DNA of 64,000 nt, taken from the IMG/VR virus record IMGVR_UViG_3300032030_000013; one strand, given 5' to 3'. A model generated the notes under the pieces. That model worked only from the letters and a program-made list of their open reading frames with translations. It ran no database searches and was not told the origin of the DNA. The DNA is from a virus. Taxonomy: Duplodnaviria; Heunggongvirae; Uroviricota; Caudoviricetes. Shown here piece by piece: positions 22,119 through 59,396 of this stretch; position 1 is the stretch's first letter; every line of letters starts with the position of its first letter. The translations under genes were made by a program, and so were the position numbers.

Positions 22119-22137
22119 TTTTTGAAATATTAAATAG

Positions 22138-23913: not shown

Positions 23914-23915
23914 TT

Positions 23916-24480: not shown

Positions 24481-24489
24481 AAACGCATT

Positions 24490-24792: not shown

Positions 24793-24820
24793 TTACATAA
24801 TTATTATCATAAATTAAGTG

Positions 24821-24910
24821 CTAGATATATCTAGAAAGCTTGCTAAGACCTTAGAATATTAAAATTTATAAACTATATATAAATTATATTCTAAGGTCTT
24901 AGCAAGCTTT
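24821..24910. terminator. long perfect inverted repeat between convergent genes (25-bp arms AAAGCTTGCTAAGACCTTAGAATAT, 24835-24859 and 24886-24910), preceded by the palindrome CTAGATATATCTAG (24821-24834); likely bidirectional terminator
   Basis: Read directly: perfect 25-bp arms with a 26-nt AT-rich loop. Confidence 0.55.
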
Positions 24911-24923
24911 AGAATGCATAATT

Positions 24924-25361: not shown

Positions 25362-25363
25362 AA

Positions 25364-26194
25364 TTATTCTTCCTCCTCATTATCTGATTCTGCTTCTTTA
25401 GCATCCATCCATGGGTGTCTAACAGGATGTGGTTCAACTAATTCTACACTTAATCCAAATTCTTTATTAAGTTCATTTTGTTGTGTAAACTCATATTTAG
25501 TCATTAGATTAAATGCTTCATTATATCTATTGAATATCGACCAAAGTTTTGCAGGAGATGTTGGTGATGGGTATCCACCTTCTTTATAATGTTCCCAGTC
25601 TACAAGATTCTTAAACTTTGAATATGAAAGATCTAATTTTGTAATATATTCAGCAGCTTTTGCTAAAGTCTTGTAATGACCATAAAGTATTTTATTGATA
25701 TATTCACGTTTCTTTGCAGAATCTTCCATGATCCTTTCAAATTCTTCAGACTTATAATCTTCAAATGGCTTATATTCATAATTGTCTTGGTCAGTAATCT
25801 TAAGATCATTTCCTGACATATAAGATTCTAAGAATGAGTGACGAAGATTAGCAATCATTAATTTGTTTGAAAAATCATTCTCAAATTTAGCTATAGCCTT
25901 TTCCTTAAGTTTGTCATTATTTTTTAAAGCAGTAATATTTACAAAATCCAAATATGTCTTTTTATCAATATCAGTAATATCCTGTACCTTAAGTAAGTCA
26001 TCAATCTTAATAGAATCAGCTACTGAACAGATTTCACTTTGAATATCTGAACATGCCATTACAAGAGTATGAATCTGTTCATTAATAGGTTTACCTGCAA
26101 TATGTAATTCATTATCCGCTAATTCATAAGCAGATGCAAGTTTTGCAAGTTTCTTTTCTTTCTTTTGTTCTTCAGTTAATTGTTTCTTTGCCAT
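25364..26194 (-). CDS. hypothetical protein (adjacent to tail tube; possible tail assembly role)
   Basis: 276 aa. No motif recognised. Confidence 0.5.
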   Translation of the reverse strand: MAKKQLTEEQKKEKKLAKLASAYELADNELHIAGKPINEQIHTLVMACSDIQSEICSVADSIKIDDLLKVQDITDIDKKTYLDFVNITALKNNDKLKEKAIAKFENDFSNKLMIANLRHSFLESYMSGNDLKITDQDNYEYKPFEDYKSEEFERIMEDSAKKREYINKILYGHYKTLAKAAEYITKLDLSYSKFKNLVDWEHYKEGGYPSPTSPAKLWSIFNRYNEAFNLMTKYEFTQQNELNKEFGLSVELVEPHPVRHPWMDAKEAESDNEEEE

Positions 26195-39230: not shown

Positions 39231-42200
39231 TTATGCCAAGAATTTATTTAATAGCTTAAACATTATCAAACTGTCTGTAGATGTTGATTTCAAATCAATA
39301 CTATTAACCAATGAGTTATCTGTTATTGTTACACCATTATTTGTTAAACTTGCACAGTCAGATATGTTTATTAAACTTGGTTTACCTAGACTTATTGTAG
39401 TTAATGCAGGATTATTTTTACAAATAAGACCAGCATTACAGTTTCCACTTAAGTCTAATTCTTGTATTGTTGAGCTATTCTCAATAAGTAGATCCATACT
39501 TGTTGCAGGACAGTCCTTTAATATCAGTTTATTTAATGATCTTAACTTTTTCATATTAAAGTATTGTTTTCCTTGTGTAGCAAAATCTTCAAAGTTATAT
39601 GTTAATCCTGTAAAGTCAAGTATCTGTATGTTAGGCATATAATTGAATATGCTTTCATTTTTACCAGATGCGATAAATGACTGTGCATCATTTGCCATAT
39701 CTATTGTGTTTCCTTGGTCATCTTTAAAATCTAATGTTCCGTTTAATACTGATAGGTCTGACTTATATAATGATGTTATAGGACTATAGTATTCTGTATT
39801 ATATTCCTTAAGCTTTCTTAATATAGGTGCGAATGCTTTAGAGCTTTGCGACAATATGAAGTTAGAATCATCATATAATATGATATTGCATGCATATGTA
39901 TGAGTGCCGATACTTGGAGAATTATATTTGACACTTCCATATAATGTAAAGTATTTCATATCTTCACAAGTGGTATTGAATAATGTTATGTCATCACATG
40001 TCTTAAACTTAATACTATTACGAACACCAGTCAATATGCCATTAACTACCTTCTTAGTACGATTGATATAACTATCGGCTGTTGTCAATACTTTAATTAA
40101 TTCTCCATCTGCTACTTCATTAGTAGTTACATAATATTCAGTTGAATCATTAACTGATAATTCATTTCCTGTCCATCCTGTTGATGCAGTTTCTCTGATA
40201 GGTAATGAGTTATTGATTGCCCCAATTCTGAAACTTACACTATGTATTGTAGCATCAAATTCTGTAGTAGTATCTAACTTAAATTCTTGTTGCATTCCAC
40301 CTTTAGGAATGATGAATATGTCTCTAAGCTGACCATTTACCATAGCATTATTTCCGAACATATTACGAGCAGTTACTTCGTCACATATGAATCGTCTAAC
40401 ATCACGACCGTTTACAGGTTCAAACTTAAAGTCACGAGCAGTTATTGTAGGATCTATATATACAATTACTGATGAATTAATTGATTGATCACCTATTTTT
40501 GTTGCAGTAATAGTAATAGTATATCTTTCAGGTTTTGTTGTTTGATCTAATATAAGATTTCTTGTAAATCCATCAGGAGCATTTTCGAATGTGTTTCCTT
40601 CAGCTCCATTGATTGTCCATACATAATTTTCAACACTTTCAGAAGAAAGTAAGAATGATGTACATTTAAATTTAATCAATGATCCTTCATTAGCAACGAT
40701 TATAGATTCACCGGTTGTTGTATCTGTTTCTATATGTATGTTTCCTGATACTGAAATCTGAGCATAGTTACTTTCTTGGTCAATAACTAAGTTAGAGTTA
40801 ATATTACTTAAAGTAAATACATTTTCACCAAATAAGTTAGATAATTCAGTTAATTGCGCAGGTTTCATATTCTCACCTTCAATTTTAACATATCCTTTTA
40901 ATGATGAATTTGTACCCCAGTTTACGCCAATTCCATTTTCATCAGGCATTCCGTTTAGGTATCCTAATCTTACTACATCTTTATATGTTATTGGTCTATA
41001 GTCAGGATCATTAAATGACTTATTATAGTTCCATCTAATATTATCTAATGATGCGGTGCAATTATTACCAATATATTCAAGTACTTTACGTTCTAATGCA
41101 TCTCCAGATAATTCAGGATTGTCTTGACTAACATAATATTCAATAGAATTAAACCAATCTAATACAAATTCTAATGTACATACATTATTAGCAGTAGATC
41201 CTTTGAATGTCAATGATTTAAATTCTTTAGGAATTCTATTCATCTTTTTAAATGTAGCTACAGTAGGATTTTCTATATATATGATATCTCCATTCTCATC
41301 TCTCTGTACTTCCCCATTAATTTCATAAGGAACTCTTTCAGTACCTGATGAGTTATATGATGTTTCCCAGAATGTTATGTTTTTCCATGATGTATTAGTA
41401 ACATTAATACTAATAACGCCAGGTGTTGTTTTTACAGTAGATCCAGTATTTTCTAAAGTTCTTCCTGGCAAATGGACGTTTTCATATACGTTTCCTAATG
41501 CAGAAGAAGTCAATGTTGTAAATCCAGTACCTATAGCATATATGTTCTTTAGTTTTGCTCTATTAGATTTTATTATATCACCATCCTTAAGGCCAAGTTG
41601 TCCTGTTATATTATATGTTATAATGTTTTCTAATGCATCTGGTGCTCCTTCAGAATCATCTTCAGAAGTTGTAGATGAAGAGTTTGTTATACTTGGAGCT
41701 ACCTTATGAATCCATCCAGTGAATTGCGTTCTACTTGGACTTTCTAAGTCTTCAGGCAATCTACTACCTATACTTAATTCTTTAATAGTTGCTCCTAATA
41801 CTGGGTCAACTGCATTTTGGAATGATAATACTTGTAATCCTTGTCCAAATACATCCAAGTCAATCTTCTCCATGAATAATGCACCAAATAAGTGTGATGG
41901 GTCTTTTGTAGAGAATGACCAGTTTGTAGCATCCCATCTTGCAGGAGAAGATTTGGTAGCTCTATATAATCCTCTATTTAATGTAGTATCCATCTGTGTC
42001 AATTTAAAATATGATTCAGATGTAGGCACAACTGTTATGATAGCTTCAGTTCCTTGAGGTTTATCAACAGCCATATATATTCTTGATGAATTAAACTGTC
42101 CACAAGTCCATTTAGAATCATAATAGTTCATTGATGTAGATATCCACCAGTGACGGTGTGAAGTACGAGATCCTTGTAACCAGTTAAGCCATGTAGCATC

Positions 42201-45200
42201 CTGAGCTTTTTCTACGTACTTATACATACCAGATTCATTATATACTAATTCTGCCCATTTATTAGCAAAATTGTTATCAAACATTTCTGTTATCTTATCG
42301 TATGTCAATCCACCTTCATATAATGCTTGTGCAGTTTCAGGAACAATTACATCTCTCCAATAATCCCATTTTTCTAAGCAATCCCATAGAACATTAGAAG
42401 TAGTTTTTGATCTTCCTGAATATGCATATGTCTGTGATGTAGCATCAAGCATTGTTGTACGGTCCATAGGAGGATCAAATGCAAGACCACCAGTATTCTT
42501 ATTACCTAATGCGATATCCATATCCCATGGCTCTAAGAACCAGTGTAATCCATCATATGTTTTATATTGAGCATTACGTTCTACAGAGTCAACAAGACCA
42601 AATCTTATGTAGAATATATAATAAGCAGCTAACTTATAAAGATCTAAGTGGTCATGTGCTTCAGATTTAAATTTATTTAATGCTGCTGTAGAAACATTGC
42701 CATTTATAATTGGGTTTCCTTGTGAATCTTTATTAAGCTGTCCTATTGAACAGATCCATCTCAAGAAATCTATCCATGGTTGTGCTTTCTTAATGAACTT
42801 AGATGTTCCTTCTGGCCATTTATAATTTGGATCTGCTGCTTGTTCTGGAGTCTTATGAACACCACTAAATTTATTTAAATTCTCAGCAGCATCATCTTCA
42901 GAAATATCATCTTCATCAGGGAATATCATTTCAAAATAGTCTTCCCAGTAATAGTTCAATGGTTTCTTATTACCATTTTCATCAAGTATGAATTCTCCAG
43001 TTGAAGGATCTGTTTCATATTTAATATCTGAAGCGGCATGATCATTTGTAAATGTTTGATCATCTTCAGTATTACCGTCTTTATCAATAACAATGTCATT
43101 AGGTACATTAAAATCCATGAATGATGTTAATGGAGTGTTAATAAGTACGCATTCAATTCTTAATACACGTTTATTATCCCAAACACAGAATTCATCTTGG
43201 TCATATCCTTTTTTAGTCTTACCATTTATAATTACTGGAGTATCTGCACCTTCTGTTGTCATACAGAATGGATCATTACCATCACCCCAAAGATAAATAG
43301 AACGTTCGCCAAATATATGATCTGATTTCTTATCATCCATTAATACGAATTGTCCTAAGAACTTTTTAGTAGGTATTGCTGAAGATGTATCAGTATAGAA
43401 TACAACAGCAGGACGTGAATCAGGAGCATTACGTAACTTATATGGGAATGCTGTTAGTTGTGCATTTCCAGTTTCAGCTATACGTAAGTCACCCCATGTA
43501 TGATTTTTTGCGCTTACTCCATTTATTTCTACATCAGTATTTCCATATCCATCAGTCCATACAGATGATCCAACTTCATTTAATAGTGTATCATTATGAA
43601 TAACTGTTTGGTTAGATGTAAATAACTGTGGAGAAGTTCTTAATTTATATTCTATTACACCATTTGATTTCTTAAATGGGGCATTATACCATGTTTCATT
43701 AATTAATCTAAGTAATCCTCCATTATGAACACCAGATGAGTCAGCATAGTTTGCTTGTAAAACATATTTATTAGAAGGAATTGAACCTATGTTAATAGGA
43801 TATCTATTCTTAACTAACCTTAAGTTTTTAACACCATCTTTAAATTCAACTTGTGGATTATTTTCACCCTTTGATTTGTTAAGCCAGAATTTAAATGAAG
43901 CAATAGGATAGTTCAATGTTGACTGACCATGTTTTCTCATTTTAACTGCGGTAGCATTGAATCCTAAATACTGACCATCTGAAGGCGTTGTATATAAAAT
44001 GTTAACTGGAGTTTCAGAATCTTCTTTATTAACACCAGGAGTCAATATATTATTAATGTTACCTGATATTAAGAATGTATCTATTTTTGATACGCATCTA
44101 TCATAATCAATTTCAGATGATCCAGAACCTTTTGTAATTGAGTTTCTAATAATGATTGATGATTTATTAGGAGCATCAAATAAGAAGTTTGTAAATGCAT
44201 CATAAACTGGCATATTTCTCCACCAAACTCTTATATTATATAAAGATATTTGAGAGTTTGTTCCACCAATTCTAATCCATCCATTTGCATTACTTATTGT
44301 TTGGTCACTTAAGTTAGCACCACGTTCAAGTACACCATTATTAACAATATAAACGTTTTTAGCATCTTTAATGGCAGTATTAGGCATAAATATGAATGTT
44401 AACTGAATACGTTCATTAGATTTATAGTTTGTCTTAATGACTTCAGTTGCACCTGAATACATAACCGCCTTTGTAGGATAAATATATATCGCAGGATTTG
44501 TACGAGTAGACCCTTCATAAGTTCTACTTGTTTCTCCGTTAGCACCTATTATAATCAATGGATCTTCATCGTTATTAACTGAACCTGACATAAAGTCAAT
44601 TTCTATTGTACGTCCATATTCACTTAATAAATATTGATTTCCACTTGGAAATGCATTAAAGTTAATTGTTCCAAAACATGTTTCTGAATTGAATGTCAAA
44701 CTATTATTTGACCATCCATTTGCAGAATCCCAAGGAATTGACGGAGAAAAATTCATTTGTGGAATATTTGCAGTATTCAATATTGTACCTGTTGGCATCC
44801 ATCTAGTTCTTGATGTTTCAGATTCACTGTTTGTACGGCCATAAGCATTTAATTTAAATACATATCCAGCCCATTCATTAAATTCAAATTCAAATGATGA
44901 TCTTTCAATAATAATTTGTCTATCGAATGCTTTATATCTACGTGGTTCTCCAGATTCAGAATCTTTAATATTACTTAATACAGTACCAACCAAATGCCAG
45001 TTTTCTGATTCTAGATAAGGTTGATCTGGAACAAATCTTAATGGCTCTGCAACCTGGTTTCTAATACCTGATAACGTAGCCAAATATGTTCTAGAATCTT
45101 CAATAACTTCGCCAGTTTCAGTATCATATTGACATAACTCCCATTCAACACTAATAGATGCATCAGTACCACCATTTGTGAAATATGCCCAGTCTAATAT

Positions 45201-46337
45201 AAACTCTTCATATTGAATACCAGTCAAATAAATTCCTTCCATACCATTTGATGTCTGTAAAGAACCAGCAGGTATAGATAGTTTAATGATTATAAAGTGG
45301 TTATTTAATTCTTCTTGTTCATCAGATTGAGTTATAAATTCATAAAGTAATGAATTAGAATCAAAGTTAATACTATTATCTGTTGTTGACATATTACCTT
45401 TGATTAATAGATAATGCTTAGGATGCATACTTTCTTCTGTACCAGATTGTGGCCAAACACATTCTCTAATAATATCGTTAGGAATTGTTAATGAAGTAGC
45501 AACACGTAATCCTTCAATATTTTTTGTTATTGTTCCTTTAGGATTAGAATAATCATCTATGTAATATGAAATTGTCTGTGAAACAGGAGTTGAAATACTT
45601 CTATTAACTATCATATTAATAGGAAGGTTAGAACCAATAGAAATTGGATCAAACCAATTAGATGTAGCATATTCTGCTGATATATTATAACTAATAATAT
45701 TAATAGGAATTTGTGGGTTAATTTTTTCTGCAGATATATCACCAGTTAATCTTATAGATAATGTTAATGTATTTGAACCTGTTTGCAAATAATCAAAACA
45801 GTCAAATAACTGTACGTCTGTTGTACTAGTACTATCATAAGTACGAACATCTTCGTATGTAACTTGATTATTAGGTCCTACAAGTTTAAATTTAACTTCA
45901 TAACTTGAGTTAAGTCCACTAGTTTTATCATCAATATATACTTTAAACTTAATCATTTGACGAGCACTACCACTTAAAATATTCATTGTTTTAAGTACTT
46001 CATCATTTTCCCCTACACAAATAATCTTATGAGGTGCAGGGATATCAAATTCAAGTAATACTAAATCTTTATATTTTTGAGCTATGGCATTTTCATTACC
46101 ACCCGCTTCTTCTACTGCTTTAAAATATCTAATCTTAGATTCTTCACTTGAGAACAATAGTTTTCTATTATTATCAATATCTTCGTGAACATAAAATGGC
46201 TTACGTAAATGACTCTGTAATAATTCACGAATTGATCCACCACTAATTGTGTCAACTATTGTTTTTCTATTAGTTATTATATCTCTATTAGATATCCAAT
46301 CAATAAATTCATTTAAACTTCCTGTATAAAGACCCAT
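39231..46337 (-). CDS. giant virion-associated protein (2368 aa; putative central fibre/adhesin or baseplate-associated)
   Basis: Single uninterrupted ORF, S/T/N/G-rich and beta-rich composition, located in the structural module upstream of the fibre genes. No catalytic motif recognised. Confidence 0.6.
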   Translation of the reverse strand: MGLYTGSLNEFIDWISNRDIITNRKTIVDTISGGSIRELLQSHLRKPFYVHEDIDNNRKLLFSSEESKIRYFKAVEEAGGNENAIAQKYKDLVLLEFDIPAPHKIICVGENDEVLKTMNILSGSARQMIKFKVYIDDKTSGLNSSYEVKFKLVGPNNQVTYEDVRTYDSTSTTDVQLFDCFDYLQTGSNTLTLSIRLTGDISAEKINPQIPINIISYNISAEYATSNWFDPISIGSNLPINMIVNRSISTPVSQTISYYIDDYSNPKGTITKNIEGLRVATSLTIPNDIIRECVWPQSGTEESMHPKHYLLIKGNMSTTDNSINFDSNSLLYEFITQSDEQEELNNHFIIIKLSIPAGSLQTSNGMEGIYLTGIQYEEFILDWAYFTNGGTDASISVEWELCQYDTETGEVIEDSRTYLATLSGIRNQVAEPLRFVPDQPYLESENWHLVGTVLSNIKDSESGEPRRYKAFDRQIIIERSSFEFEFNEWAGYVFKLNAYGRTNSESETSRTRWMPTGTILNTANIPQMNFSPSIPWDSANGWSNNSLTFNSETCFGTINFNAFPSGNQYLLSEYGRTIEIDFMSGSVNNDEDPLIIIGANGETSRTYEGSTRTNPAIYIYPTKAVMYSGATEVIKTNYKSNERIQLTFIFMPNTAIKDAKNVYIVNNGVLERGANLSDQTISNANGWIRIGGTNSQISLYNIRVWWRNMPVYDAFTNFLFDAPNKSSIIIRNSITKGSGSSEIDYDRCVSKIDTFLISGNINNILTPGVNKEDSETPVNILYTTPSDGQYLGFNATAVKMRKHGQSTLNYPIASFKFWLNKSKGENNPQVEFKDGVKNLRLVKNRYPINIGSIPSNKYVLQANYADSSGVHNGGLLRLINETWYNAPFKKSNGVIEYKLRTSPQLFTSNQTVIHNDTLLNEVGSSVWTDGYGNTDVEINGVSAKNHTWGDLRIAETGNAQLTAFPYKLRNAPDSRPAVVFYTDTSSAIPTKKFLGQFVLMDDKKSDHIFGERSIYLWGDGNDPFCMTTEGADTPVIINGKTKKGYDQDEFCVWDNKRVLRIECVLINTPLTSFMDFNVPNDIVIDKDGNTEDDQTFTNDHAASDIKYETDPSTGEFILDENGNKKPLNYYWEDYFEMIFPDEDDISEDDAAENLNKFSGVHKTPEQAADPNYKWPEGTSKFIKKAQPWIDFLRWICSIGQLNKDSQGNPIINGNVSTAALNKFKSEAHDHLDLYKLAAYYIFYIRFGLVDSVERNAQYKTYDGLHWFLEPWDMDIALGNKNTGGLAFDPPMDRTTMLDATSQTYAYSGRSKTTSNVLWDCLEKWDYWRDVIVPETAQALYEGGLTYDKITEMFDNNFANKWAELVYNESGMYKYVEKAQDATWLNWLQGSRTSHRHWWISTSMNYYDSKWTCGQFNSSRIYMAVDKPQGTEAIITVVPTSESYFKLTQMDTTLNRGLYRATKSSPARWDATNWSFSTKDPSHLFGALFMEKIDLDVFGQGLQVLSFQNAVDPVLGATIKELSIGSRLPEDLESPSRTQFTGWIHKVAPSITNSSSTTSEDDSEGAPDALENIITYNITGQLGLKDGDIIKSNRAKLKNIYAIGTGFTTLTSSALGNVYENVHLPGRTLENTGSTVKTTPGVISINVTNTSWKNITFWETSYNSSGTERVPYEINGEVQRDENGDIIYIENPTVATFKKMNRIPKEFKSLTFKGSTANNVCTLEFVLDWFNSIEYYVSQDNPELSGDALERKVLEYIGNNCTASLDNIRWNYNKSFNDPDYRPITYKDVVRLGYLNGMPDENGIGVNWGTNSSLKGYVKIEGENMKPAQLTELSNLFGENVFTLSNINSNLVIDQESNYAQISVSGNIHIETDTTTGESIIVANEGSLIKFKCTSFLLSSESVENYVWTINGAEGNTFENAPDGFTRNLILDQTTKPERYTITITATKIGDQSINSSVIVYIDPTITARDFKFEPVNGRDVRRFICDEVTARNMFGNNAMVNGQLRDIFIIPKGGMQQEFKLDTTTEFDATIHSVSFRIGAINNSLPIRETASTGWTGNELSVNDSTEYYVTTNEVADGELIKVLTTADSYINRTKKVVNGILTGVRNSIKFKTCDDITLFNTTCEDMKYFTLYGSVKYNSPSIGTHTYACNIILYDDSNFILSQSSKAFAPILRKLKEYNTEYYSPITSLYKSDLSVLNGTLDFKDDQGNTIDMANDAQSFIASGKNESIFNYMPNIQILDFTGLTYNFEDFATQGKQYFNMKKLRSLNKLILKDCPATSMDLLIENSSTIQELDLSGNCNAGLICKNNPALTTISLGKPSLINISDCASLTNNGVTITDNSLVNSIDLKSTSTDSLIMFKLLNKFLA

Positions 46338-46561: not shown

Positions 46562-48937
46562 TTAAAAATCAACTACATTTTTAGATTCATCTGTTGGATC
46601 AACTTCATTAAGTATTCTTGGAGAACCAGTTAATGGAATAGGATTTTGAATAGTATCATTTGATTTAATAATTTCATTATAATATAATCTTTTTGCACTA
46701 CCCATATTAATTGTAGAAACAGAACACATTGATCCAGTTATACATACACCAACTAATTCTAAAGTTGTAAATCCAATAATACCTCTTGTAGCTTTACCAT
46801 TTCTTCCATATATATCAGCAAAACCACTATTTTTCTTATCAGTATCAGATAAACCATTTGCTATTTCTGGCATAAATACTTTACAATTATTCTTAACATA
46901 ACATATACCATCAAATGTAGTATATTTTATTTGATCTGTTGGATTTAATCTATTATGTTCTTCAACAAATTCTTTTGTGTAATATTGTTCAATATTGCTC
47001 TTTAATGATATATTTGCATCAGGTCCAATAACAACTGCATTACCTTTTATACCACGTTGACCACATTTTGTTATAATTATGTTTCCTTTAGAATCAGTAA
47101 TTTTAGTTTCACCACCATCTAATCCATCAGCTTTTAACGATGATATATACAAATATGAGTTATTCTTAAGTTCAATTTCTAAGTTATTTTCAGATTTTAC
47201 ACAATCACTTTCAAAATTAATGGCATCAATTCCTGTAGATGTATAATTATTTCTAATAACATTTATAGAATCTTGAACTGCCATTATTTTTATATTTGAT
47301 CCTTCTGAAGAATAATAAACAGATGGTACATTACCACCATTACTTAAATCTGGATTATTATATGTATCTATAAATGCATTATTTAAATATAATGTTACAT
47401 TATCTCCATTTTGATTACCATAGCCATCAAATTGTATTGGTTTATTAATATATCCTGTTGCTAAAATATATTTTCCTTTATTTCCTTTAGTATTAGAAAT
47501 TATATAAGTATCTGTAGCTTCATCTAATTCTATTGGAGTTCCTGTTGTATTTTCATCATAATCAAAATCTGGTTGACCTGGTAATAATTGAATAGATCCA
47601 GTTATATTTCCAAATATTGATTTATAATTTTGTTCAGATAATAAATACATATTATTACAGCTTTGTAATTGTGCTGATGTTAATAAATCTTCTGAGAAAT
47701 ATAATCCTTTGTTTTTACTATCTATAATATTTTGTTTTAAATTACTTGTATATAATATGCCATCATAGAATAATACTCTACCAGAATTGCTAGTACCAAT
47801 TGCATCATTACACCCATTCATGCTATATACACCGCCAATTATATGTATATCTCTACCATGTATACCATCATGTGGTGAATTGATCCAAATATGAGGACCA
47901 CCTAAATTAAGAACATCAGCACGAATACCATGACCTGATTTGGTCTTAATTGATAAATAACCTGCGCCTTGAATGTTAAGATTATTCATTGAATATATTG
48001 CACCAGGTTGATCATCTGTATTTTCTGCAGTTAATGTGCAATATATATAGTTTTCAACATTAGGTGATAATGTTATCTTAAGTGATTTCTGAGCTTTTGC
48101 ATTTTCAGGTATCTTATATAAAATTGCATTATCTGTATCTGATAATATACGTACATTATTTAATATAAGTTCAGTATCATTATTAACTTTAGATAATGAT
48201 GATGTGTCAATTTCAATTGATCCAATTAATGTTCCTTCTAATGTATAAGACTTTTGTGGCGCTAATGATATCTTACCATCTGTTGTGTATATAGTTTCTT
48301 GTATATCTCCATTTTCATCAACATAAGAAACATTTAAGTTTGTACTAATATCTTCAAATGGATCTGTAGGTACAGGAGTTGGCGGTGGTGTTGGAACTCC
48401 ATCATCAATAACCATATATAAAGCATCTTCTTCATATTCTTCTAATGCTTCATATTCTTCTTGTGTTAATATAATATGCTTATAAGTCTCTTTAGGACCT
48501 ATTTGATTAACAATTTCTTCAACACGTTCATTAAATTCTGTTGTTGATATTTTTTCATTAATTGATTGCTGTAATCTACGATCTGCATTATCAACATTTT
48601 CTGCTAATGTACCTAAAGATTCTTCAACTTCACTTGTATGATCCGATAAATTATTTAAACCAGTTTCTAATTCTTGTGTTTTTCTTACTAATTGTTTTGA
48701 TGTTTCATTAATATTACCAATAGTACTTAAGAACATTGCTGTTGAAATAATGTCATCATCCAATCCAGGAACTTCAGCGTTATTCCAATCAATATCAATT
48801 GCATTTATAATTAATTGGGGATTTTTGATATTTCCATTTTCATACTTATATGGTGCTTTATTTATTTTTTGGCCACCAGTGTTCAAACCAGCGGTAACAT
48901 TTTTAAATAAGACACCATTAGATTCATAATTAGGCAT
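46562..48937 (-). CDS. putative tail fibre/spike protein with N-terminal coiled coil, Pro/Thr linker (PTPPPTPVPTDP) and beta-rich C-terminal domain
   Basis: 791 aa. Domain organisation inferred from composition only. Confidence 0.5.
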   Translation of the reverse strand: MPNYESNGVLFKNVTAGLNTGGQKINKAPYKYENGNIKNPQLIINAIDIDWNNAEVPGLDDDIISTAMFLSTIGNINETSKQLVRKTQELETGLNNLSDHTSEVEESLGTLAENVDNADRRLQQSINEKISTTEFNERVEEIVNQIGPKETYKHIILTQEEYEALEEYEEDALYMVIDDGVPTPPPTPVPTDPFEDISTNLNVSYVDENGDIQETIYTTDGKISLAPQKSYTLEGTLIGSIEIDTSSLSKVNNDTELILNNVRILSDTDNAILYKIPENAKAQKSLKITLSPNVENYIYCTLTAENTDDQPGAIYSMNNLNIQGAGYLSIKTKSGHGIRADVLNLGGPHIWINSPHDGIHGRDIHIIGGVYSMNGCNDAIGTSNSGRVLFYDGILYTSNLKQNIIDSKNKGLYFSEDLLTSAQLQSCNNMYLLSEQNYKSIFGNITGSIQLLPGQPDFDYDENTTGTPIELDEATDTYIISNTKGNKGKYILATGYINKPIQFDGYGNQNGDNVTLYLNNAFIDTYNNPDLSNGGNVPSVYYSSEGSNIKIMAVQDSINVIRNNYTSTGIDAINFESDCVKSENNLEIELKNNSYLYISSLKADGLDGGETKITDSKGNIIITKCGQRGIKGNAVVIGPDANISLKSNIEQYYTKEFVEEHNRLNPTDQIKYTTFDGICYVKNNCKVFMPEIANGLSDTDKKNSGFADIYGRNGKATRGIIGFTTLELVGVCITGSMCSVSTINMGSAKRLYYNEIIKSNDTIQNPIPLTGSPRILNEVDPTDESKNVVDF

Positions 48938-50654: not shown

Positions 50655-50688
50655 TAATAAAAAAAGGATACTATTAAATAGTATCCTT
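50655..50688 (-). terminator. rho-independent terminator (GGATACTATT-taa-AATAGTATCC plus T7 on minus strand)
   Basis: 3' of the SPFH gene. Confidence 0.55.
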
Positions 50689-50715
50689 TCTTTATATAGT
50701 TAACGCTTTAACTAT

Positions 50716-52740
50716 TTACTTAACTTCCTCGAAGTTATCAGTTTTCTTATTTCTCTTTTTCTTATCTTCATTAATCTGTTGCTCTTCTGGTGCATTAAGC
50801 TCCTTCTTATCATCGGTCATTCCCAAAAGATTCTTGATAGGAGTCTTCATACCAGTTGAGATCATATCAATAGCAGGAGTTACGTTAGCCATAAGATCCT
50901 TAATAAACTTACCACCAGTAGAAGAATCACCATATACCATAACGTGGCCCAAAGATATTTTTGATAAAGCTTCGGCCTGAGCACCAGCGATACCTTCAAG
51001 ATGATCAACAGTCTTCCATTGTACAGCCAAATCTGGGCGACCACCTGCAACCTCTACCATTTTCTCAAATGCCATAGCAGGTGCCAATTCCTTCTGCTGT
51101 AATGCTTCCGCCTCAGCCATCAAACTTGCTCTCTTACCTTCAGCCTCAGCCATTAACTTATTCTTAATACCTTCTGCCTCAGCATTTAACTTAATACGAG
51201 TTGCTTCAGCCTCAGCCTCAGCCTTTCTCAATAATTGAGCTTTAACAGCTTCAGCCTCAAGTTCTGCCTTACGTTTAATTGCCTCAGCCTCAATAACTGC
51301 CTTCTCCTTAGCTTTCTGAGCAGGTACGATTTCAGTAGCATTTAATTGCTCCTCTGCAGCAGCAGCCTGTGCCTTGTTAACTTCCAACTGTCTCTCTTGC
51401 TTGGTTTTAGCAACCGACATCTCTGCATCAACCATAGCAGTTTCCTTCACCTTCTTAGCATCAGCTTCCGCCTTACCTGCCTTAGCAGTAGCCTCAGCAA
51501 CTTCAATCTTTGCAATCTGTTCTGCGACACCAGCTTTCTTATCAGCTTCTGCCTTACGCTTACGTTTCTCAGATTCATATTCTGCAGCCTTAGATTCCTT
51601 TTCCTGTATTGCCTTAATAGTTTCTGCTTCCTTCTCCTGATTAGCCTTAGCAACACGAATCAACTTCTGTGCTTCCTGTTCATTCTTGGTAGCTTCAGCA
51701 TCTGCCTCATACTTAGCGATATTCTTCATCTGTTCTGCCTCAGAACCTGCCTTATTTGATTCTGCTTCAGCCTGTGCCTTAGCTACAGCTGAAATCTGAC
51801 GAGCCTTAGCAGTTGCTTTCTTTGATTCTGCATCAGCCTGTGCCTCAGCAATATTAGCAGCCTTTTCAGCTTCTTGAGTTGCAATACCAGACTCACGTTC
51901 CTTAGCAGCCTCAGCAAGTTTAATTTCCTTATCTCTTTGAATCTCTGCAACTCGAACTTCCTGCTCCTGTTTTGTTTCATTAACAGTTACCTCCTGCTCC
52001 TTAGTAGCTGCAGCAACCTGAATTTCCTCTTCCTTCTTAGTGTTTGCGATCTTAACATTACCTTGCTTCCTCTGTTCAGCAATATCTGCCTCAGCGTTAG
52101 CCTGTGCCTTAGTAGCAGCCTTCTGACCTAAGTTCTTAATGTAATTAGCATCATCAGTAATTTCTGAAATGTTAATGTTAGTAACATCATAACCAACCTT
52201 AGCCAACTCCTGCTCAAGTGATCCACGAACCTTATTCAAGAACTTATCACGTTCTGCGTTAATTTCCTCAATAAGCATTGTTGCCATAATAGCACGTGTC
52301 TCACCAACAAGGATTTCAGATACCTGCTTGTGAATTTCCTCAGATTTAGCACTTAAGAATCTTGTTGCAGCGTTCTGTTGAATTTCCTTATCCCTACTAA
52401 TAGCTGTAGTCAATACAACAGGCAAGTGCATAGGAATAGCCTGAGAATCAATACCGTCAACAGTTACCTTAATCTGAATAGGTGCCATTGACATCTTTTT
52501 GTAATCTTGAATGATAGGCCATACAAATGCACCACCACCCTGAATAATCTTAGATGGAACTACAATAGTCTTCTCCTTACCATCTTCACCTTCAACCTTC
52601 ATCTTTCCAGATTTACCGAACACAACCAAAAGTTCATCTGGTGCAGAACGACGATATCTAGAAAGAATCGCCCAAATGGTAATAATACCGAGCAATACAG
52701 CTCCACCAATCAAAATCAATGTAAATAATTGTTCACTCAT
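50716..52740 (-). CDS. SPFH/band-7 (flotillin/YqiK-like) membrane protein with long Ala/Glu/Lys coiled coil
   Basis: N-terminal TM helix (LFTLILIGGAVLLGIITIWAIL), SPFH core (IQGGGAFVWPIIQDYKKMSMAPIQIKV...), an about 300-aa AEAEA/KAQ-rich coiled coil, and a flotillin-like C-terminus. Confidence 0.8.
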   Translation of the reverse strand: MSEQLFTLILIGGAVLLGIITIWAILSRYRRSAPDELLVVFGKSGKMKVEGEDGKEKTIVVPSKIIQGGGAFVWPIIQDYKKMSMAPIQIKVTVDGIDSQAIPMHLPVVLTTAISRDKEIQQNAATRFLSAKSEEIHKQVSEILVGETRAIMATMLIEEINAERDKFLNKVRGSLEQELAKVGYDVTNINISEITDDANYIKNLGQKAATKAQANAEADIAEQRKQGNVKIANTKKEEEIQVAAATKEQEVTVNETKQEQEVRVAEIQRDKEIKLAEAAKERESGIATQEAEKAANIAEAQADAESKKATAKARQISAVAKAQAEAESNKAGSEAEQMKNIAKYEADAEATKNEQEAQKLIRVAKANQEKEAETIKAIQEKESKAAEYESEKRKRKAEADKKAGVAEQIAKIEVAEATAKAGKAEADAKKVKETAMVDAEMSVAKTKQERQLEVNKAQAAAAEEQLNATEIVPAQKAKEKAVIEAEAIKRKAELEAEAVKAQLLRKAEAEAEATRIKLNAEAEGIKNKLMAEAEGKRASLMAEAEALQQKELAPAMAFEKMVEVAGGRPDLAVQWKTVDHLEGIAGAQAEALSKISLGHVMVYGDSSTGGKFIKDLMANVTPAIDMISTGMKTPIKNLLGMTDDKKELNAPEEQQINEDKKKRNKKTDNFEEVK

Positions 52741-52802
52741 TTTTTAAAAAAATTAAAATTAAACGTTTAAAATTATATATTAATACTCTCTTAATTCAAT
52801 TA

Positions 52803-52994
52803 TTAATATATAGAATATGAATTCGGATATCTTTTATAATTAATTTGTTTTTTCTGTTCCTCTTCCTGTTCTAATTTATTAATTTCATATCTTATATTAT
52901 CACACAAATTATTAACTCCATTTTGAATTTCCAATTTAGTTACAGGAATTTCTAATTCATTCCAAATATAATCAAATAATTCCCTTAGCTTCAT
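52803..52994 (-). CDS. hypothetical small protein
   Basis: 63 aa. Confidence 0.3.
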   Translation of the reverse strand: MKLRELFDYIWNELEIPVTKLEIQNGVNNLCDNIRYEINKLEQEEEQKKQINYKRYPNSYSIY

Positions 52995-53003
52995 ATAATT
53001 TAT

Positions 53004-53150
53004 TTATATTTTTTTATTAATATTTTTTAAATATTTTAATACTTTATAATCATATACCATTTTACAAGTTAATGATCCTACCCATAAAATTAATGGTACA
53101 GTTACAACTGTTCCTAATCCTTTAATACCAAAAATATCTTTTACTTTCAT
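53004..53150 (-). CDS. possible 48-aa small membrane peptide (MKVKDIFGIKGLGTVVTVPLILWVGSLTCKMVYDYKVLKYLKNINKKI)
   Basis: Found by hand translation (below the ORF-track size cut-off). Start overlaps the stop of 53147..53695. Confidence 0.3.
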   Translation of the reverse strand: MKVKDIFGIKGLGTVVTVPLILWVGSLTCKMVYDYKVLKYLKNINKKI

Positions 53151-53695
53151 TTATCTATACAAGAAATTAAAATCTTATCGCCTTCTTTATTTAACTTTAC
53201 TTCAGTTCCAATTTCCAAATCATCTGAAGTGTAAAATGCATCCACATTCGTAGTTCCTGCTACAGTATGAGCTTCAACAGAATATTGTCCATTACCAAGA
53301 TTTAAATAAATATTACCTACACATCCATTAATATTATCTTGAGGTAATGTTGGAGTACAATTAGCTTTCATTGCAGTTTTATAACATAAGAATAAAAGAA
53401 TCATTAAAACTGCTCCGCATAAACCAGCAATAAAATAATCCCAAAAACTAAATGTTACATAACCATTATCTGTAGTTAAATTAATAGGATATAAATAAAC
53501 TCTTCCGCAAAGATAAGCACTAAATCCCATTAAGAAATGCAATACTCCCTTAAATGAAAACGCACTTGATGTATCACAATCTGAATCTCCGTCAAAATCT
53601 ACATCCAAATCAAAATCTCCAGCAAATACTGAAATCAAAAGCTTAACAATAAATATGGCAAAAGTTGCCACAAATAAAATTAAATACCAATTCAT
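53147..53695 (-). CDS. NfeD-like membrane protein (partner of SPFH proteins)
   Basis: 2-3 predicted TM helices, then a C-terminal beta-rich, OB-fold-like segment (VGNIYLNLGNGQYSVEAHTVAG...IGTEVKLNKEGDKILIS). Synteny with the SPFH gene as in bacterial yqiJ-yqiK / stomatin-NfeD operons. Confidence 0.5.
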   Translation of the reverse strand: MNWYLILFVATFAIFIVKLLISVFAGDFDLDVDFDGDSDCDTSSAFSFKGVLHFLMGFSAYLCGRVYLYPINLTTDNGYVTFSFWDYFIAGLCGAVLMILLFLCYKTAMKANCTPTLPQDNINGCVGNIYLNLGNGQYSVEAHTVAGTTNVDAFYTSDDLEIGTEVKLNKEGDKILISCIDK

Positions 53696-56048: not shown

Positions 56049-56573
56049 TTAGTATCTATCTGTTATAATGATAGTATCTTTATTGTCTTTAAATATTTTC
56101 TTAACTTTATTGATTCCTAATTCCATATCATCAATTACTTTCTCAGGTATGCAATCATTTCTACGTTTCTTGCAAACATCTTTAGGAGTATCTATAATGA
56201 CTATCTTAACATTAGCACCAGCTTTATTTAACTTACTATAATAGTTTTCAACACGTCCTGCTTTAACATTTGTATTATCAATAACAAAATCTTTGCGTTG
56301 TCTTATAAGTTCATTAATACGTTCATCATTAATTCTAGTCACTTCCTTTTCTTGTTCTTTATCACCTATAGCTTTATGATCATCATCTTTCATAATTCCA
56401 AGTTCAACTCTTATTGAATCTTGATTAATAATTTCAATATTTTTTGGAAGTTCTTCTTTAATATATGTAGACTTACCTGAACCTGGAAGACCAACCATTA
56501 TCCAAACATTAAAAGGATTTTGTTTTTCAAATATATTTAATGATTCTTTTATGTATGTTAAAATTGATTTCAT
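56049..56573 (-). CDS. polynucleotide 5'-kinase (T4 Pnk kinase-domain-like P-loop kinase), tag family N-terminus (MKSILTYIKE)
   Basis: MVGLPGSGKSTYIKEEL, then INQDSIR, then VIDNTNVK, arranged like the T4 PNK kinase domain (GCPGSGKST...NRDDYR...ISDTNLN; recall-based). 174 aa. Confidence 0.55.
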   Translation of the reverse strand: MKSILTYIKESLNIFEKQNPFNVWIMVGLPGSGKSTYIKEELPKNIEIINQDSIRVELGIMKDDDHKAIGDKEQEKEVTRINDERINELIRQRKDFVIDNTNVKAGRVENYYSKLNKAGANVKIVIIDTPKDVCKKRRNDCIPEKVIDDMELGINKVKKIFKDNKDTIIITDRY

Positions 56574-57284: not shown

Positions 57285-58751
57285 TTATTTACCTGCTAAT
57301 ATAATTATGTGTTTGCCGCTTTCAAGCATTTCAATTACTTGTTTATATGTATAATAATTTTTCTGACTCGAATAAAGATATCTATAATTTGGTTGATAAT
57401 CATTTATTGAATAACTTTGTTTTGTATTTGTTACCCATTTGTCATCTTCAATATTACAAACAAGTATTCTACTATATTTCATTAAATTAAAACGACGTAA
57501 TTGAAGTACAAAACTTTCAAATTTTTTCCATGATTCAGTATCTTCAGCAACTTTTTTAATGACTTCTATTTTCTTACCAGTATTTGTTGAATATACTACT
57601 GTATTAATTTTTGTATCTTTATTAATTTTTAATTTTTCATCAATAAAATATTCACCAAATGATTTAATGTTTCTTCTCATATATTGAGAAAGTTTAGATT
57701 CATTTATTTTTTGAAGTCTTTCGATTACTTTATTGACATTTAATTGGAATTCTTTAGATATAAAATAGTTACGTTTCTTTTGTTTGAAAAATACTTGTAA
57801 ATATTTTTCATATAAGAACTTCATATTGTCACCATACTCTTTGATGATATCTTGTATTTCTTTAGATGCTTTATTAATCTGTAATGTAAAGAAATCTTTA
57901 AACTTAGGTTGTAATGTATCTATTATATCTTCATATTTAGATTTGAATTCTTCATTATTAATCATATTAATAAAATTAGCATCTAAATTCTTAATCCAAT
58001 TATCATTCTCATGTTTGCCAATTTTATTAATAGTTTCATATATCAATTCATATAAGTTAATGTATTCTTCTATTTCTTTCTTATAATCTTCATTTCCTTG
58101 TTTGATTTCTTTATCATGACGAGTCTTAAATGCAGGATTAATTATCTTATACTGCGATATTGCATTATCTATATTCCATGTCAATACAATACCTTCAACT
58201 TCATCTCCGACTAAAAATTTCTGATAGTCACCTTTACCAAATATATTAGTAAGATATTCTTTATATACATCATTAGAAGTTTCTGATTCTAATGTCATCA
58301 TTGACATTAATGATTCAATCTGTTCTTTATTTAATTTACCTTCAAATAATATAGGAACACAATCTATGCCTAATGATTTTGATATTTCTTCTAACTTATT
58401 TCTATCATCTATTATATTATTATCATTATCTATAACAGTCAAAAGAATATAAGAATCGTTGAACATTTCAATAGCATAAAATTTATACTTCTTAACAGCT
58501 TCCTTTTTAGATTCAAAATAATCAATAGCATCATTAATGTTCTTTCTCATTAATTGAGTATATTCATCAATAATAGGACCTAATGATTTTGAAGAACCAC
58601 CACGCTTATGATATGTTATATTATCATTTTCTTTATCATAAGATATCTGAAATGCAGCGCCATCAACTTTTAAAGATATACTTACTTCTTTTGTAAATAA
58701 ATCTTTAACTACTTCAGGCTTCTTTAAATATCTATCTATTAAATGTTCCAT
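57285..58751 (-). CDS. ATP-dependent RNA ligase-like nucleotidyltransferase (KxDG motif)
   Basis: The N-terminal SISLKVDGAAFQ contains the ligase motif I K-x-D-G without the Arg typical of DNA ligases, as in T4 Rnl2 KIDG. 488 aa. Confidence 0.5.
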   Translation of the reverse strand: MEHLIDRYLKKPEVVKDLFTKEVSISLKVDGAAFQISYDKENDNITYHKRGGSSKSLGPIIDEYTQLMRKNINDAIDYFESKKEAVKKYKFYAIEMFNDSYILLTVIDNDNNIIDDRNKLEEISKSLGIDCVPILFEGKLNKEQIESLMSMMTLESETSNDVYKEYLTNIFGKGDYQKFLVGDEVEGIVLTWNIDNAISQYKIINPAFKTRHDKEIKQGNEDYKKEIEEYINLYELIYETINKIGKHENDNWIKNLDANFINMINNEEFKSKYEDIIDTLQPKFKDFFTLQINKASKEIQDIIKEYGDNMKFLYEKYLQVFFKQKKRNYFISKEFQLNVNKVIERLQKINESKLSQYMRRNIKSFGEYFIDEKLKINKDTKINTVVYSTNTGKKIEVIKKVAEDTESWKKFESFVLQLRRFNLMKYSRILVCNIEDDKWVTNTKQSYSINDYQPNYRYLYSSQKNYYTYKQVIEMLESGKHIIILAGK

Positions 58752-58784: not shown

Positions 58785-59396
58785 TTATTTCTTGTACCAT
58801 TTAGGTGGATTCTTTTCTAATGGAGAACCTTTAAACATTTTATATATATTTGTATCGCGACTTATATTCCATTTAGAAATGTTTCCACTGAACTTAGAAT
58901 CATTAAACATATATGACATAAATTCAACATTACTTACATCCCAATTAGATATATCTCCATTTTTACCAGTAAATTTAGATTCAGCAAACATTGATGCCAT
59001 ATTTGTAACATTACTTACATCCCATTTACTTAAATCTCCATCAAATTTAGAACTATTAAACATAAATAACATATTTTTAACATTACTTACATCCCATTCA
59101 GATATATCACCGTTAAAATCAGAATTAAGAAATATACCTGACATATCTTTGACATTACTTATATCCCATTTTGATATATCTCCATTAAAATCTGAATCTT
59201 CAAATAAATTTGACATGTCTGTTATCTGTGATGTATCAATATCATTCAAATTTGCTTCATTTCCACGTTCTTTAATTAATTTTTCAATAAGATCTTTTAA
59301 TTCTTTATTATCTATAGGATGATAATGATACTTATCAACTTTAATATTCTTATTTATAATAAGTTTCTCATTTATAAAATTATTTATTTGTTTCAT
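58785..59396 (-). CDS. DUF285 / 26-residue-repeat protein with extended tag MKQINNFINEKLIINKNIK
   Basis: Five tandem repeats of the type F(N/D)GDIS.WDVSNV..M..MF. Confidence 0.55.
   Translation of the reverse strand: MKQINNFINEKLIINKNIKVDKYHYHPIDNKELKDLIEKLIKERGNEANLNDIDTSQITDMSNLFEDSDFNGDISKWDISNVKDMSGIFLNSDFNGDISEWDVSNVKNMLFMFNSSKFDGDLSKWDVSNVTNMASMFAESKFTGKNGDISNWDVSNVEFMSYMFNDSKFSGNISKWNISRDTNIYKMFKGSPLEKNPPKWYKK

What the first reader, a model, noticed from the sequence alone, without database searches (positions are those of the whole stretch)
50716..53695. Phage-encoded flotillin-like SPFH protein paired with an NfeD-like membrane protein
50716..52740 is a complete SPFH/band-7 protein with a TM anchor, a 300-aa coiled coil and a flotillin C-terminus. 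Two small ORFs upstream lies 53147..53695, with TM helices plus a C-terminal OB-like beta domain typical of NfeD. Together they reproduce the bacterial stomatin-NfeD or yqiJ-yqiK operon. Such pairs organise membrane microdomains and regulate membrane proteases such as FtsH. In a phage this could remodel the host membrane, modulate FtsH-type proteases or mediate superinfection exclusion. I do not recall this pair being described in T4-like structural regions.
Basis: partly seen in the sequence, partly recalled or inferred. Interest (0 to 1): 0.6.

Follow-up and report, generated by a model that had tools for sequence, protein, structure and literature searches.

The report
Phage flotillin with divergent NfeD-like partner
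A large gut phage carries a flotillin-type membrane-scaffold gene and its small membrane partner, a pair shared with Bacteroidales bacteria, so the phage probably builds its own membrane scaffold in the infected cell, though what the scaffold does is unknown.

Summary
On the minus strand, 50716-52740 encodes a 674-aa flotillin-type SPFH protein: Pfam Band_7 1.4e-21, and flotillin-1/2 are its only solved-structure matches. 53147-53695 encodes a 182-aa membrane protein with a C-terminal five-stranded barrel. Two small ORFs lie between them.

Other evidence still makes it NfeD-like:
- The best viral structural match is named "NfeD-like C-terminal domain-containing protein".
- The consensus of its bacterial relatives aligns with the whole Pfam NfeD model, below threshold.

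The pairing is not chance. All 35 viral contigs found with a partner homologue carry the flotillin downstream. So do Bacteroidales chromosomes, where the same two families sit about 20 nt apart. Both genes are under purifying selection and their trees give the same groups.

Best reading: a host-type flotillin/NfeD-like operon kept by several lineages of large gut phages, here with a longer coiled coil. I rate it a new variant of a known kind, of moderate interest. Its role in infection is untested.

The parts
53147..53695 (-). 182-aa membrane protein, a divergent NfeD-like partner of the flotillin. It is the first gene of the module.
53534..53620 (-). Family signature in the partner, residues 26-54: the alternating acidic loop GDFDLDVDFDGDSDCD followed by SFKGVLHF.
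   Evidence: Invariant or nearly invariant columns in alignments A1/A2. DxDxD occurs in 95 of 107 family members and FKGxxHF in 82 of 107. AlphaFold2 confidence is low over residues 28-46.
53159..53344 (-). C-terminal OB-like five-stranded barrel of the partner, residues about 118-179.
53004..53150 (-). 48-aa small hydrophobic ORF. Its start overlaps the partner's stop (ATGA). It is a lineage-specific insert.
   Evidence: ORF. Sequence. Hydrophobic segment at residues 6-33. A homologue was found only in the closest relative, L019.
52803..52994 (-). 63-aa small ORF, a lineage-specific insert.
   Evidence: ORF. Conserved in L019. Only its N-terminal 28-38 residues are recognisable in L003, L011, L012, L013 and L017. 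It is absent in L006, L018, L020-L045 and L001, where the two main genes lie 11-32 nt apart.
50716..52740 (-). 674-aa flotillin-type SPFH protein, the last gene of the module.
   Evidence: Pfam Band_7 1.4e-21. NCBIfam FloT 9.2e-37, 127 bits against a cut-off of 700. The only PDB sequence matches are flotillin-1/2, best E 1.9e-21. 33-38% identical over the full length to Bacteroidales flotillins. dN/dS 0.05 against L019.
52660..52728 (-). N-terminal membrane anchor of the SPFH protein, residues about 5-27.
   Evidence: Kyte-Doolittle hydrophobic segment at residues 1-29, peak 2.68.
52069..52635 (-). SPFH/Band_7 domain, residues 36-224.
   Evidence: Pfam PF01145, profile positions 7-175 of 176.
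51049..52149 (-). Long A/E/K/Q-rich helical (coiled-coil) region, residues about 198-564. The phage proteins are about 100-150 residues longer overall than the Bacteroidales homologues, and most of the extra length falls in this region.
   Evidence: Composition. AlphaFold2 helices at 198-466 and 473-564, low pLDDT. Gaps in the alignment with csAssE-Sib, KIT04 and YqiK. Length comparison: 640-708 aa in the window clade (truncated loci excluded) against 535-566 aa in named Bacteroidales.
50657..50695 (-). Terminator-like hairpin (GGATACTATT-loop-AATAGTATCC followed by a T run), starting 21 nt after the SPFH stop codon. It is the likely end of the transcription unit.
   Evidence: Scan. Sequence. 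The scan found no hairpin in the gaps between the four ORFs. The only other minus-strand hit lies inside the partner's coding sequence at 53654-53672.

Best explanation
This is a phage-borne copy of the bacterial flotillin operon. The module has four genes on one strand: partner, two small inserted ORFs, then flotillin. It ends at a terminator and is expressed in the infected cell, probably a Bacteroidota host.

The flotillin anchors in the cytoplasmic membrane by its N-terminal helix. It oligomerises through its SPFH domain and its very long coiled coil into a ring- or dome-shaped scaffold on the cytoplasmic face, as solved SPFH complexes do.

The 182-aa partner sits in the same membrane patch with its helices. 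Its cytoplasmic OB-like barrel binds the flotillin coiled-coil or C-terminal region and stabilises the oligomer, as NfeD does for FloA and YbbJ does for QmcA.

Net effect: the phage installs or replaces a flotillin microdomain scaffold. The most likely purpose is to keep the membrane and its proteins working through a long, demanding infection by a very large phage.

Shown: the identity of both proteins, their conserved pairing, their shared ancestry with the Bacteroidales pair, and purifying selection. Inferred: complex formation, topology, co-transcription and the physiological role.
For: Identity of the flotillin:
- Pfam Band_7 at 1.4e-21.
- Best NCBIfam model is FloT.
- The only solved-structure sequence matches are flotillin-1/2.

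Partner fold and architecture:
- AlphaFold2 model with pLDDT 79, helices plus a five-strand barrel.
- The best viral structure match covers the full length, at E 9.5e-13, and is named NfeD-like.

Sub-threshold sequence links to NfeD:
- NfeD is the only Pfam family hit by more than one of 107 family members.
- The consensus C-terminal domain of the Bacteroidales relatives aligns with NfeD profile positions 2-56 of 57, E 4.9e-4.
- hhalign of the family against E. coli YbbJ gives E 0.0015 over 103 columns, in register.

Pairing and ancestry:
- 35 of 35 viral loci and 115 of 122 loci overall keep the partner upstream of the flotillin on the same strand. The gap is 11-45 nt in most.
- The closest cellular flotillins are from Bacteroidales, and their upstream 164-194-aa ORFs belong to the same partner family (hmmsearch E 1e-54 to 1e-68).
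- NJ trees of the two proteins give the same groups.
- dN/dS is 0.05 for the flotillin and 0.27 for the partner.

Operon signals:
- The partner's stop overlaps the next start, the other gaps are 9 and 62 nt, and a hairpin with a T run follows the flotillin only.

Mechanistic precedent:
- nfeD is the first gene and the flotillin the second gene of a widespread bacterial operon.
- The NfeD OB-like domain binds the FloA coiled coil and stabilises the oligomers (PMC11222466).
- QmcA-YbbJ forms a cage of 26 heterodimers (PDB 8z5g; PMC13086221).
Against: - The window partner has no direct hit to Pfam NfeD, YqiJ_N or YqiJ_OB, nor to any NCBIfam, PHROG or PADLOC model.
- The consensus of the phage clade does not hit NfeD either.
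- The family profile finds no solved NfeD by sequence.
- The FloT equivalog score is far below its cut-off, 127 against 700 bits, and the Pfam Flot domain is not detected.
- The flotillin model is low confidence (pLDDT 55), so cage formation is argued by analogy only.
- The second helix of the partner is weakly hydrophobic, so the topology is unresolved between two and three membrane spans.
- No expression or interaction data exist.
- One relative (L005) has a different gene after the partner before the contig ends.
Confidence: 0.7

Rival explanations
1. Passenger genes. The pair is a recently captured piece of host chromosome with no phage-specific role, and will be lost.
For: The same two-gene unit is chromosomal in Bacteroides, Phocaeicola, Parabacteroides and Prevotella. 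The csAssE-Sib copy groups with Bacteroidaceae in both NJ trees, which suggests transfer between host and phage.
Against: - The window clade branches deeply, at only 33-38% identity to any bacterial flotillin.
- The pair is kept across phage relatives whose partner proteins are only 28-82% identical to the window's.
- Both genes are under purifying selection.
- The phage proteins have their own features: a longer coiled coil, and small ORFs inserted in one clade.
Confidence: 0.12
2. The pair is a superinfection-exclusion or anti-defence device. The membrane scaffold blocks DNA entry by competing phages or disarms a membrane-based host defence.
For: Phages often place membrane proteins to exclude rivals (general knowledge). 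The partner evolves much faster than the flotillin, 82% against 98% identity to L019, with dN/dS 0.27 against 0.05. That pattern can occur in conflict genes.
Against: - No PADLOC model matches.
- The same pair is an ordinary chromosomal operon in Bacteroidales.
- A dN/dS of 0.27 is still purifying selection.
- No neighbouring defence or anti-defence genes were recognised.
Confidence: 0.1
3. The small protein is not an NfeD relative. It is an unrelated membrane protein, for example a cation-binding or channel-like protein with a generic OB barrel, that only sits next to the flotillin gene.
For: - No direct NfeD or YqiJ profile hit.
- The most conserved features are an acidic DxDxD(G) loop and an SFKGxxHF motif, which lie outside the OB domain that the Pfam NfeD model covers.
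Against: - A full-length structural match goes to a protein named NfeD-like.
- The bacterial-relative consensus aligns along the whole NfeD model.
- hhalign to YbbJ is in register.
- Position and order are the same as nfeD in flotillin operons (PMC11222466).
- The partner tree matches the flotillin tree in its groups.
- Even if the ancestry differs, strict co-occurrence argues for a functional partnership.
Confidence: 0.08

Closest known systems
Bacteroidales chromosomal flotillin operon: an unannotated 164-194-aa membrane protein plus a 535-566-aa flotillin (for example Bacteroides hominis L049, Phocaeicola vulgatus L056, Parabacteroides leei L051, Prevotella L105)
   Same: Both protein families, the gene order and the strand are the same. 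The partner has the same acidic loop, SFKGxxHF motif and C-terminal barrel.
   Different: - Identity is only 33-38% for the flotillin and about 30-35% for the partner.
- The bacterial genes lie about 20 nt apart with nothing between them.
- The phage flotillin is about 100-150 residues longer, in the coiled coil.
- The bacterial partners also lack any Pfam or NCBIfam hit when scanned singly.
Firmicute nfeD-flotillin operons: B. subtilis yuaF(nfeD2)-floT and S. aureus nfeD-floA
   Different: The window partner is not recognised by Pfam NfeD. The FloT score is far under its equivalog cut-off. The window pair is viral, and it carries two extra small ORFs.
E. coli yqiJ-yqiK
   Same: The order and architecture are the same, a membrane protein with a C-terminal OB followed by a flotillin-family protein. 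YqiK aligns with the window flotillin at BLASTP E 1e-19, 26% identity.
   Different: YqiJ hits Pfam YqiJ_N and YqiJ_OB and the window partner hits neither. hhalign of the family against YqiJ gives only E 0.085. The family HMM does not pick up YqiJ at E<=1e-5.
E. coli QmcA-YbbJ SPFH-NfeD cage (PDB 8z5g; Tan et al. 2024)
   Same: It is an SPFH protein with an NfeD-family operon partner, solved as a cage of 26 heterodimers. That makes it the structural template for how such pairs assemble. YbbJ gives the best hhalign signal for the partner family, E 0.0015.
   Different: QmcA is a stomatin-type SPFH protein of 305 aa with a short coiled coil. Its gene order is reversed, with qmcA upstream of ybbJ. 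It is not a flotillin.
Flotillin genes already annotated in deposited phage genomes: phage csAssE-Sib (OR575929) and Vibrio phage KIT04 (LC487410)
   Same: Both are annotated 'flotillin family protein' and are 39% and 30% identical to the window protein. In csAssE-Sib a 164-aa 'transmembrane protein' directly upstream is a homologue of the window partner (BLASTP 1e-13).
   Different: - Neither record calls the upstream gene NfeD-like.
- KIT04 has only an 82-aa membrane protein upstream, with no barrel.
- No paper on these genes was found in the searchable library.

Membership tests
SPFH / Band 7 superfamily (Pfam PF01145) | Band_7 domain scoring above Pfam's gathering cut-off | tested here: met
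   77.8 bits against a cut-off of 23.6, E 1.4e-21, residues 36-224, profile positions 7-175 of 176.
Flotillin subfamily of SPFH proteins | Closest characterised relatives are flotillins rather than stomatin, prohibitin or HflK/C | tested here: met
   The only PDB sequence matches at E<=1e-3 are human flotillin-1/2, E 1.9e-21 to 2.9e-19. The only NCBIfam hit is FloT. GenBank homologues are annotated 'flotillin family protein'.
Flotillin subfamily of SPFH proteins | N-terminal membrane anchor, SPFH domain, then a long Ala/Glu-rich coiled coil | tested here: met
   Hydrophobic segment at residues 1-29, and 60-70% A/E/K/Q over residues about 200-550. Predicted helix at 198-564, from a low-confidence model.
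Flotillin subfamily of SPFH proteins | FloT equivalog score (NCBIfam NF058507), and the Pfam Flot C-terminal domain | tested here: not met
   127 bits against a cut-off of 700. No Pfam hit other than Band_7 at E<=1. The protein is a distant flotillin-type protein, not a FloT orthologue.
Flotillin subfamily of SPFH proteins | Assembly into large membrane-bound rings or cages | not testable with these tools
   Only single chains can be modelled here, and the monomer model has pLDDT 55.
NfeD family (Pfam PF01957, NfeD-like C-terminal partner-binding domain) | NfeD profile match above threshold | tested here: not met
   No hit at E<=1 for the window protein. Two of 107 family members hit at E<=0.01. 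The consensus of the Bacteroidales relatives scores 20.7 bits, E 4.9e-4, against a cut-off of 29.1. The phage-clade consensus gives no hit.
NfeD family (Pfam PF01957, NfeD-like C-terminal partner-binding domain) | C-terminal five-stranded OB-like barrel resembling solved NfeD domains | tested here: met
NfeD family (Pfam PF01957, NfeD-like C-terminal partner-binding domain) | N-terminal membrane helices, and a gene placed in an operon with an SPFH gene | tested here: met
   Helices at 3-25, 42-67 and 84-112. Partner and flotillin are on the same strand in 115 of 122 loci, and adjacent in most. In the window they are 406 nt apart, with two small ORFs and no terminator between them.
NfeD family (Pfam PF01957, NfeD-like C-terminal partner-binding domain) | Physical binding to the SPFH partner | not testable with these tools
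   No multimer prediction or experiment is available.
YqiJ / DUF1449 family (Pfam PF21001 YqiJ_N and PF07290 YqiJ_OB) | Profile matches to YqiJ_N and YqiJ_OB | tested here: not met
   E. coli YqiJ hits both, at 1.1e-15 and 1.7e-14. The window partner and nine bacterial relatives hit neither. hhalign of the family against YqiJ gives E 0.085.
Known anti-phage defence systems (PADLOC-DB 2.0) | Match to any defence-protein model | tested here: not met
   No hit at E<=1 for any of the four proteins of the module.

The most novel reading that the evidence does not exclude
Several lineages of large gut phages build their own enlarged flotillin cages in the host membrane. The cages use a coiled coil about 100-150 residues longer than the host's and a dedicated cation-binding NfeD-like partner. 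Together they form a virus-made membrane compartment needed for infection, for example to protect or concentrate membrane proteins during a long jumbo-phage cycle, or to take over the host's own flotillin domains.
Probability: 0.2. Interest if true: 0.75.

Novelty: new variant of a known kind. Interest (0 to 1): 0.5.

Why it matters
Flotillin/NfeD pairs are near-universal in bacteria, but their function is still debated. I found no study of a virus-encoded version in the searchable literature.

- **A natural experiment.** A phage that carries its own flotillin and partner shows what this scaffold is worth to a replicating genome under strong pressure on gene content.
- **A missed protein family.** The partner has at least 245 clusters at 50% identity, includes the partner of the Bacteroides flotillin, and is missed by the Pfam and NCBIfam models. 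Flotillin operons in Bacteroidales genomes are therefore probably left with an unnamed first gene. This rests on model scans, since no bacterial annotation was read.
- **A testable prediction.** The longer coiled coil should give a larger assembly, because subunit number tracks CC1 helix length in solved SPFH complexes (PMC12624060).

Tried and rejected
- Direct profile searches of the partner against Pfam, NCBIfam, PHROGs and PADLOC found nothing useful.
- The family profile against all PDB sequences gave only chance-level hits.
- The afdb50 library was not available.
- Megablast of the region against deposited phages found no match.
- The search for related loci failed with alignments that were too divergent. 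It worked with closer ones.
- The profile search with A1 listed only the best 120 hits, so the weak tail could not be read. The full HMMER search of representatives replaced it.
- hhalign against single E. coli sequences is weak evidence, because the templates have no depth.
- The flotillin AlphaFold2 model was too uncertain (pLDDT 55) to use beyond secondary structure.
- The sigma-70 promoter scan was no better than shuffled sequence, 19 sites against 22 expected, so I used no promoter call.
- Literature searches for phage-encoded flotillin, SPFH or NfeD found nothing specific.
- The Jug-phage paper does not mention stomatin, prohibitin or band 7, nor flotillin or SPFH.
- I considered an HflK/C-like role as an FtsH regulator. 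I set it aside because every characterised match is to flotillin, not HflK/C. The FtsH_ext hit in the neighbouring ORF is noise, at E 0.42.
Full report
**1. What is in the sequence.**

All genes in 46.5-64 kb run on the minus strand. The finding's two ORFs are real.

- 50716-52740 encodes 674 aa and 53147-53695 encodes 182 aa.
- Two small ORFs lie between them: 53004-53150 (48 aa, hydrophobic) and 52803-52994 (63 aa).
- The partner's stop overlaps the next start (ATGA). The other gaps are 9 and 62 nt.
- A clean hairpin followed by a T run starts 21 nt after the flotillin stop, at 50695-50657. No such site lies in the gaps between the four ORFs.
- Co-transcription is therefore plausible, but it is inferred. 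The promoter scan was no better than shuffled sequence.

**2. The genome is a large tailed phage.**

- The window holds a tail sheath, a major head protein, a head maturation protease, a helicase and topoisomerase II. It also holds an RNA ligase and an AAA_33 kinase.
- GC content is 23-38%.
- No deposited phage is close at the DNA level.
- The nearest relatives are metagenomic contigs of up to 435-460 kb. In L019 (435 kb) the partner is 82% identical and the flotillin 98% identical over its full length.
- 'T4-like' is only loosely apt.

**3. The large protein is flotillin-type.**

- Pfam Band_7 matches at E 1.4e-21, residues 36-224.
- The only NCBIfam hit is FloT, at 9.2e-37. It scores 127 bits against an equivalog cut-off of 700, so the protein is not a FloT orthologue.
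- Among all PDB sequences, only human flotillin-1/2 match, at 1.9e-21 to 2.9e-19.
- There is one hydrophobic N-terminal segment, then about 350 residues that are 60-70% A/E/K/Q. AlphaFold2 predicts these as continuous helix, in a low-confidence model.
- No profile confirmed the 'flotillin C-terminus'.

**4. The small protein fails direct NfeD searches but is NfeD-like by fold and context.**

Direct searches fail. Pfam (including NfeD, YqiJ_N and YqiJ_OB), NCBIfam, PHROGs and PADLOC give nothing. A family profile finds no solved NfeD by sequence.

The fold points to NfeD.
- The AlphaFold2 model (pLDDT 79) has three helices and a five-strand C-terminal barrel.
- Foldseek against viral models gives one outstanding full-length hit, a 175-aa protein that UniProt names 'NfeD-like C-terminal domain-containing protein' (E 9.5e-13).

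Sequence signals are consistent but below threshold.
- NfeD is the only Pfam family hit by more than one of 107 diverse family members (2 members, best E 0.0015).
- The consensus C-terminal domain of the bacterial relatives aligns with NfeD profile positions 2-56 of 57. It scores 20.7 bits at E 4.9e-4, against a cut-off of 29.1. The phage-clade consensus does not hit.
- hhalign of the family against E. coli YbbJ gives E 0.0015 in register, and against YqiJ E 0.085.

I call it a divergent NfeD-like protein. I do not call it a demonstrated member of Pfam NfeD.

**5. The family has its own signature.**

- The family is large: 245 clusters at 50% identity reach E<=1e-3.
- An alternating acidic loop (DxDxD) occurs in 95 of 107 members, and DxDxDG in 51.
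- The motif S-F-K-G-x-x-H-F follows it in 82 of 107.
- This looks like a cation-binding loop. That is my inference.

**6. The pairing is conserved and shared with Bacteroidales.**

- Every one of the 35 IMG/VR loci found through the partner has a flotillin homologue downstream on the same strand.
- In more distant phage relatives the genes lie 11-32 nt apart. These are L006, L018, L020-L045 and csAssE-Sib. The two small ORFs are thus lineage-specific inserts, recognisable only in close relatives.
- The closest cellular flotillins, at 33-38% identity over the full length, are from Bacteroides, Phocaeicola, Parabacteroides and Prevotella.
- In those genomes a 164-194-aa ORF ends about 20 nt upstream. 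It belongs to the same partner family, with hmmsearch E 1e-54 to 1e-68.
- Overall, 115 of 122 loci with a flotillin homologue have the partner. Most exceptions are truncated loci or problems in calling the start codon. The real exceptions are Vibrio phage KIT04, E. coli yqiJ, which belongs to a different family, and L123, whose upstream ORF is only 116 aa.
- Crude NJ trees of the two proteins give the same groups: the window clade, a second phage clade, csAssE-Sib among Bacteroidaceae, and the chromosomal Bacteroidales. They carry no support values.
- dN/dS against L019 is 0.05 for the flotillin and 0.27 for the partner.
- Together these results argue for a co-inherited functional module, a Bacteroidota host, and more than one exchange between host and phage.

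**7. How it probably works.**

Published work sets the precedent.
- nfeD is the first gene and the flotillin the second gene of a widespread bacterial operon.
- NfeD's cytosolic OB-like barrel binds the flotillin coiled coil and stabilises its oligomers.
- That complex confines and stabilises unfolded membrane proteins (PMC11222466).
- QmcA-YbbJ forms a cage of 26 heterodimers (PDB 8z5g; PMC13086221).

By analogy, the phage pair should form a flotillin scaffold with bound partner on the cytoplasmic face of the host membrane.

The phage flotillins are longer than the bacterial ones. They are 640-708 aa in the window clade and 653-686 aa in a second clade, against 535-566 aa in Bacteroidales. 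The extra length lies in the helical region. In solved SPFH complexes, subunit number tracks CC1 helix length (PMC12624060). A larger assembly is therefore a testable prediction.

The physiological role is not addressed by any data here. Candidates are membrane-protein maintenance during a long infection, take-over of host microdomains, and exclusion of rivals.

**8. Novelty.**

- GenBank already labels the csAssE-Sib and KIT04 genes 'flotillin family protein'.
- The partner is unannotated. No paper in the searchable library deals with phage-encoded flotillin or NfeD.
- The paper on 360-402-kb 'Jug' gut phages of Bacteroides and Phocaeicola does not mention these genes.
- Among 50,697 deposited phage records, only nine carry a flotillin-like gene. 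tblastn with the partner found one weak hit. Direct comparison shows that csAssE-Sib also carries a partner homologue, which that search missed.
- This is a known kind of system in a new setting, with a divergent partner and an elongated scaffold. I rate it a new variant of a known kind, of moderate interest.

Noticed in passing
window 53534-53620 (-), partner residues 26-54: The conserved alternating acidic loop (DxDxD in 95 of 107 family members, DxDxDG in 51) resembles a cation-binding motif. Related gut jumbo ('Jug') phages are reported to encode a Ca2+-exporting P-type ATPase (PMC12880540). Any link is untested.
   Followed up: partly
L046 (CACYVR010000057.1, Methanobrevibacter MAG RUG12316) and L112 (CADBGE010000004.1, Erysipelotrichaceae MAG RUG13941): Contigs binned into an archaeal MAG and a Firmicute MAG carry the long phage-type flotillin. 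L046 is 82% identical to the window protein, and L112 has a 670-aa flotillin plus the partner. They are probably mis-binned phage contigs from rumen data.
   Followed up: partly
L002 3689-3937 (Vibrio phage KIT04, LC487410): This phage's flotillin gene is preceded by an 82-aa membrane protein with no OB barrel. Not every phage flotillin therefore has an NfeD-like partner.
   Followed up: partly
L005 4862-5764: One partner homologue (38% identical) is followed by a signal-peptide repeat protein instead of a flotillin before the contig ends. It is the only such case seen.
   Followed up: partly
window 39231-46337 (-): A 2368-aa ORF with no Pfam domain. It matches only PHROG families of unknown function (phrog_14959, E 8e-49). 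It lies between the putative fibre-like genes and the flotillin module.
   Followed up: partly
window 46562-48937 (-): A 791-aa protein with a Cthe_2159 carbohydrate-binding beta-helix domain (E 2.5e-19). It is conserved two genes downstream of the flotillin in L003, and may be a tail fibre or depolymerase.
   Followed up: partly
window 56049-56573 and 57285-58751 (-): An AAA_33/zeta-toxin-like kinase and an RNA ligase lie upstream of the module. Both are conserved in the same position in L003 and L008, and may form an RNA-repair pair.
   Followed up: partly
window 58785-59396 (-): A 203-aa protein with a strong DUF285 match (E 2.4e-46). A 176-aa ORF overlaps it on the opposite strand.
   Followed up: no
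window 20000-26000: GC skew changes sign, and a block of plus-strand genes sits here (20472-23913, including a helicase), between minus-strand blocks. It is a local switch in transcription direction.
   Followed up: no
window 53147-53695 compared with 50716-52740: The partner evolves much faster than the flotillin: 82% against 98% amino-acid identity to L019, with dN/dS 0.27 against 0.05.
   Followed up: partly
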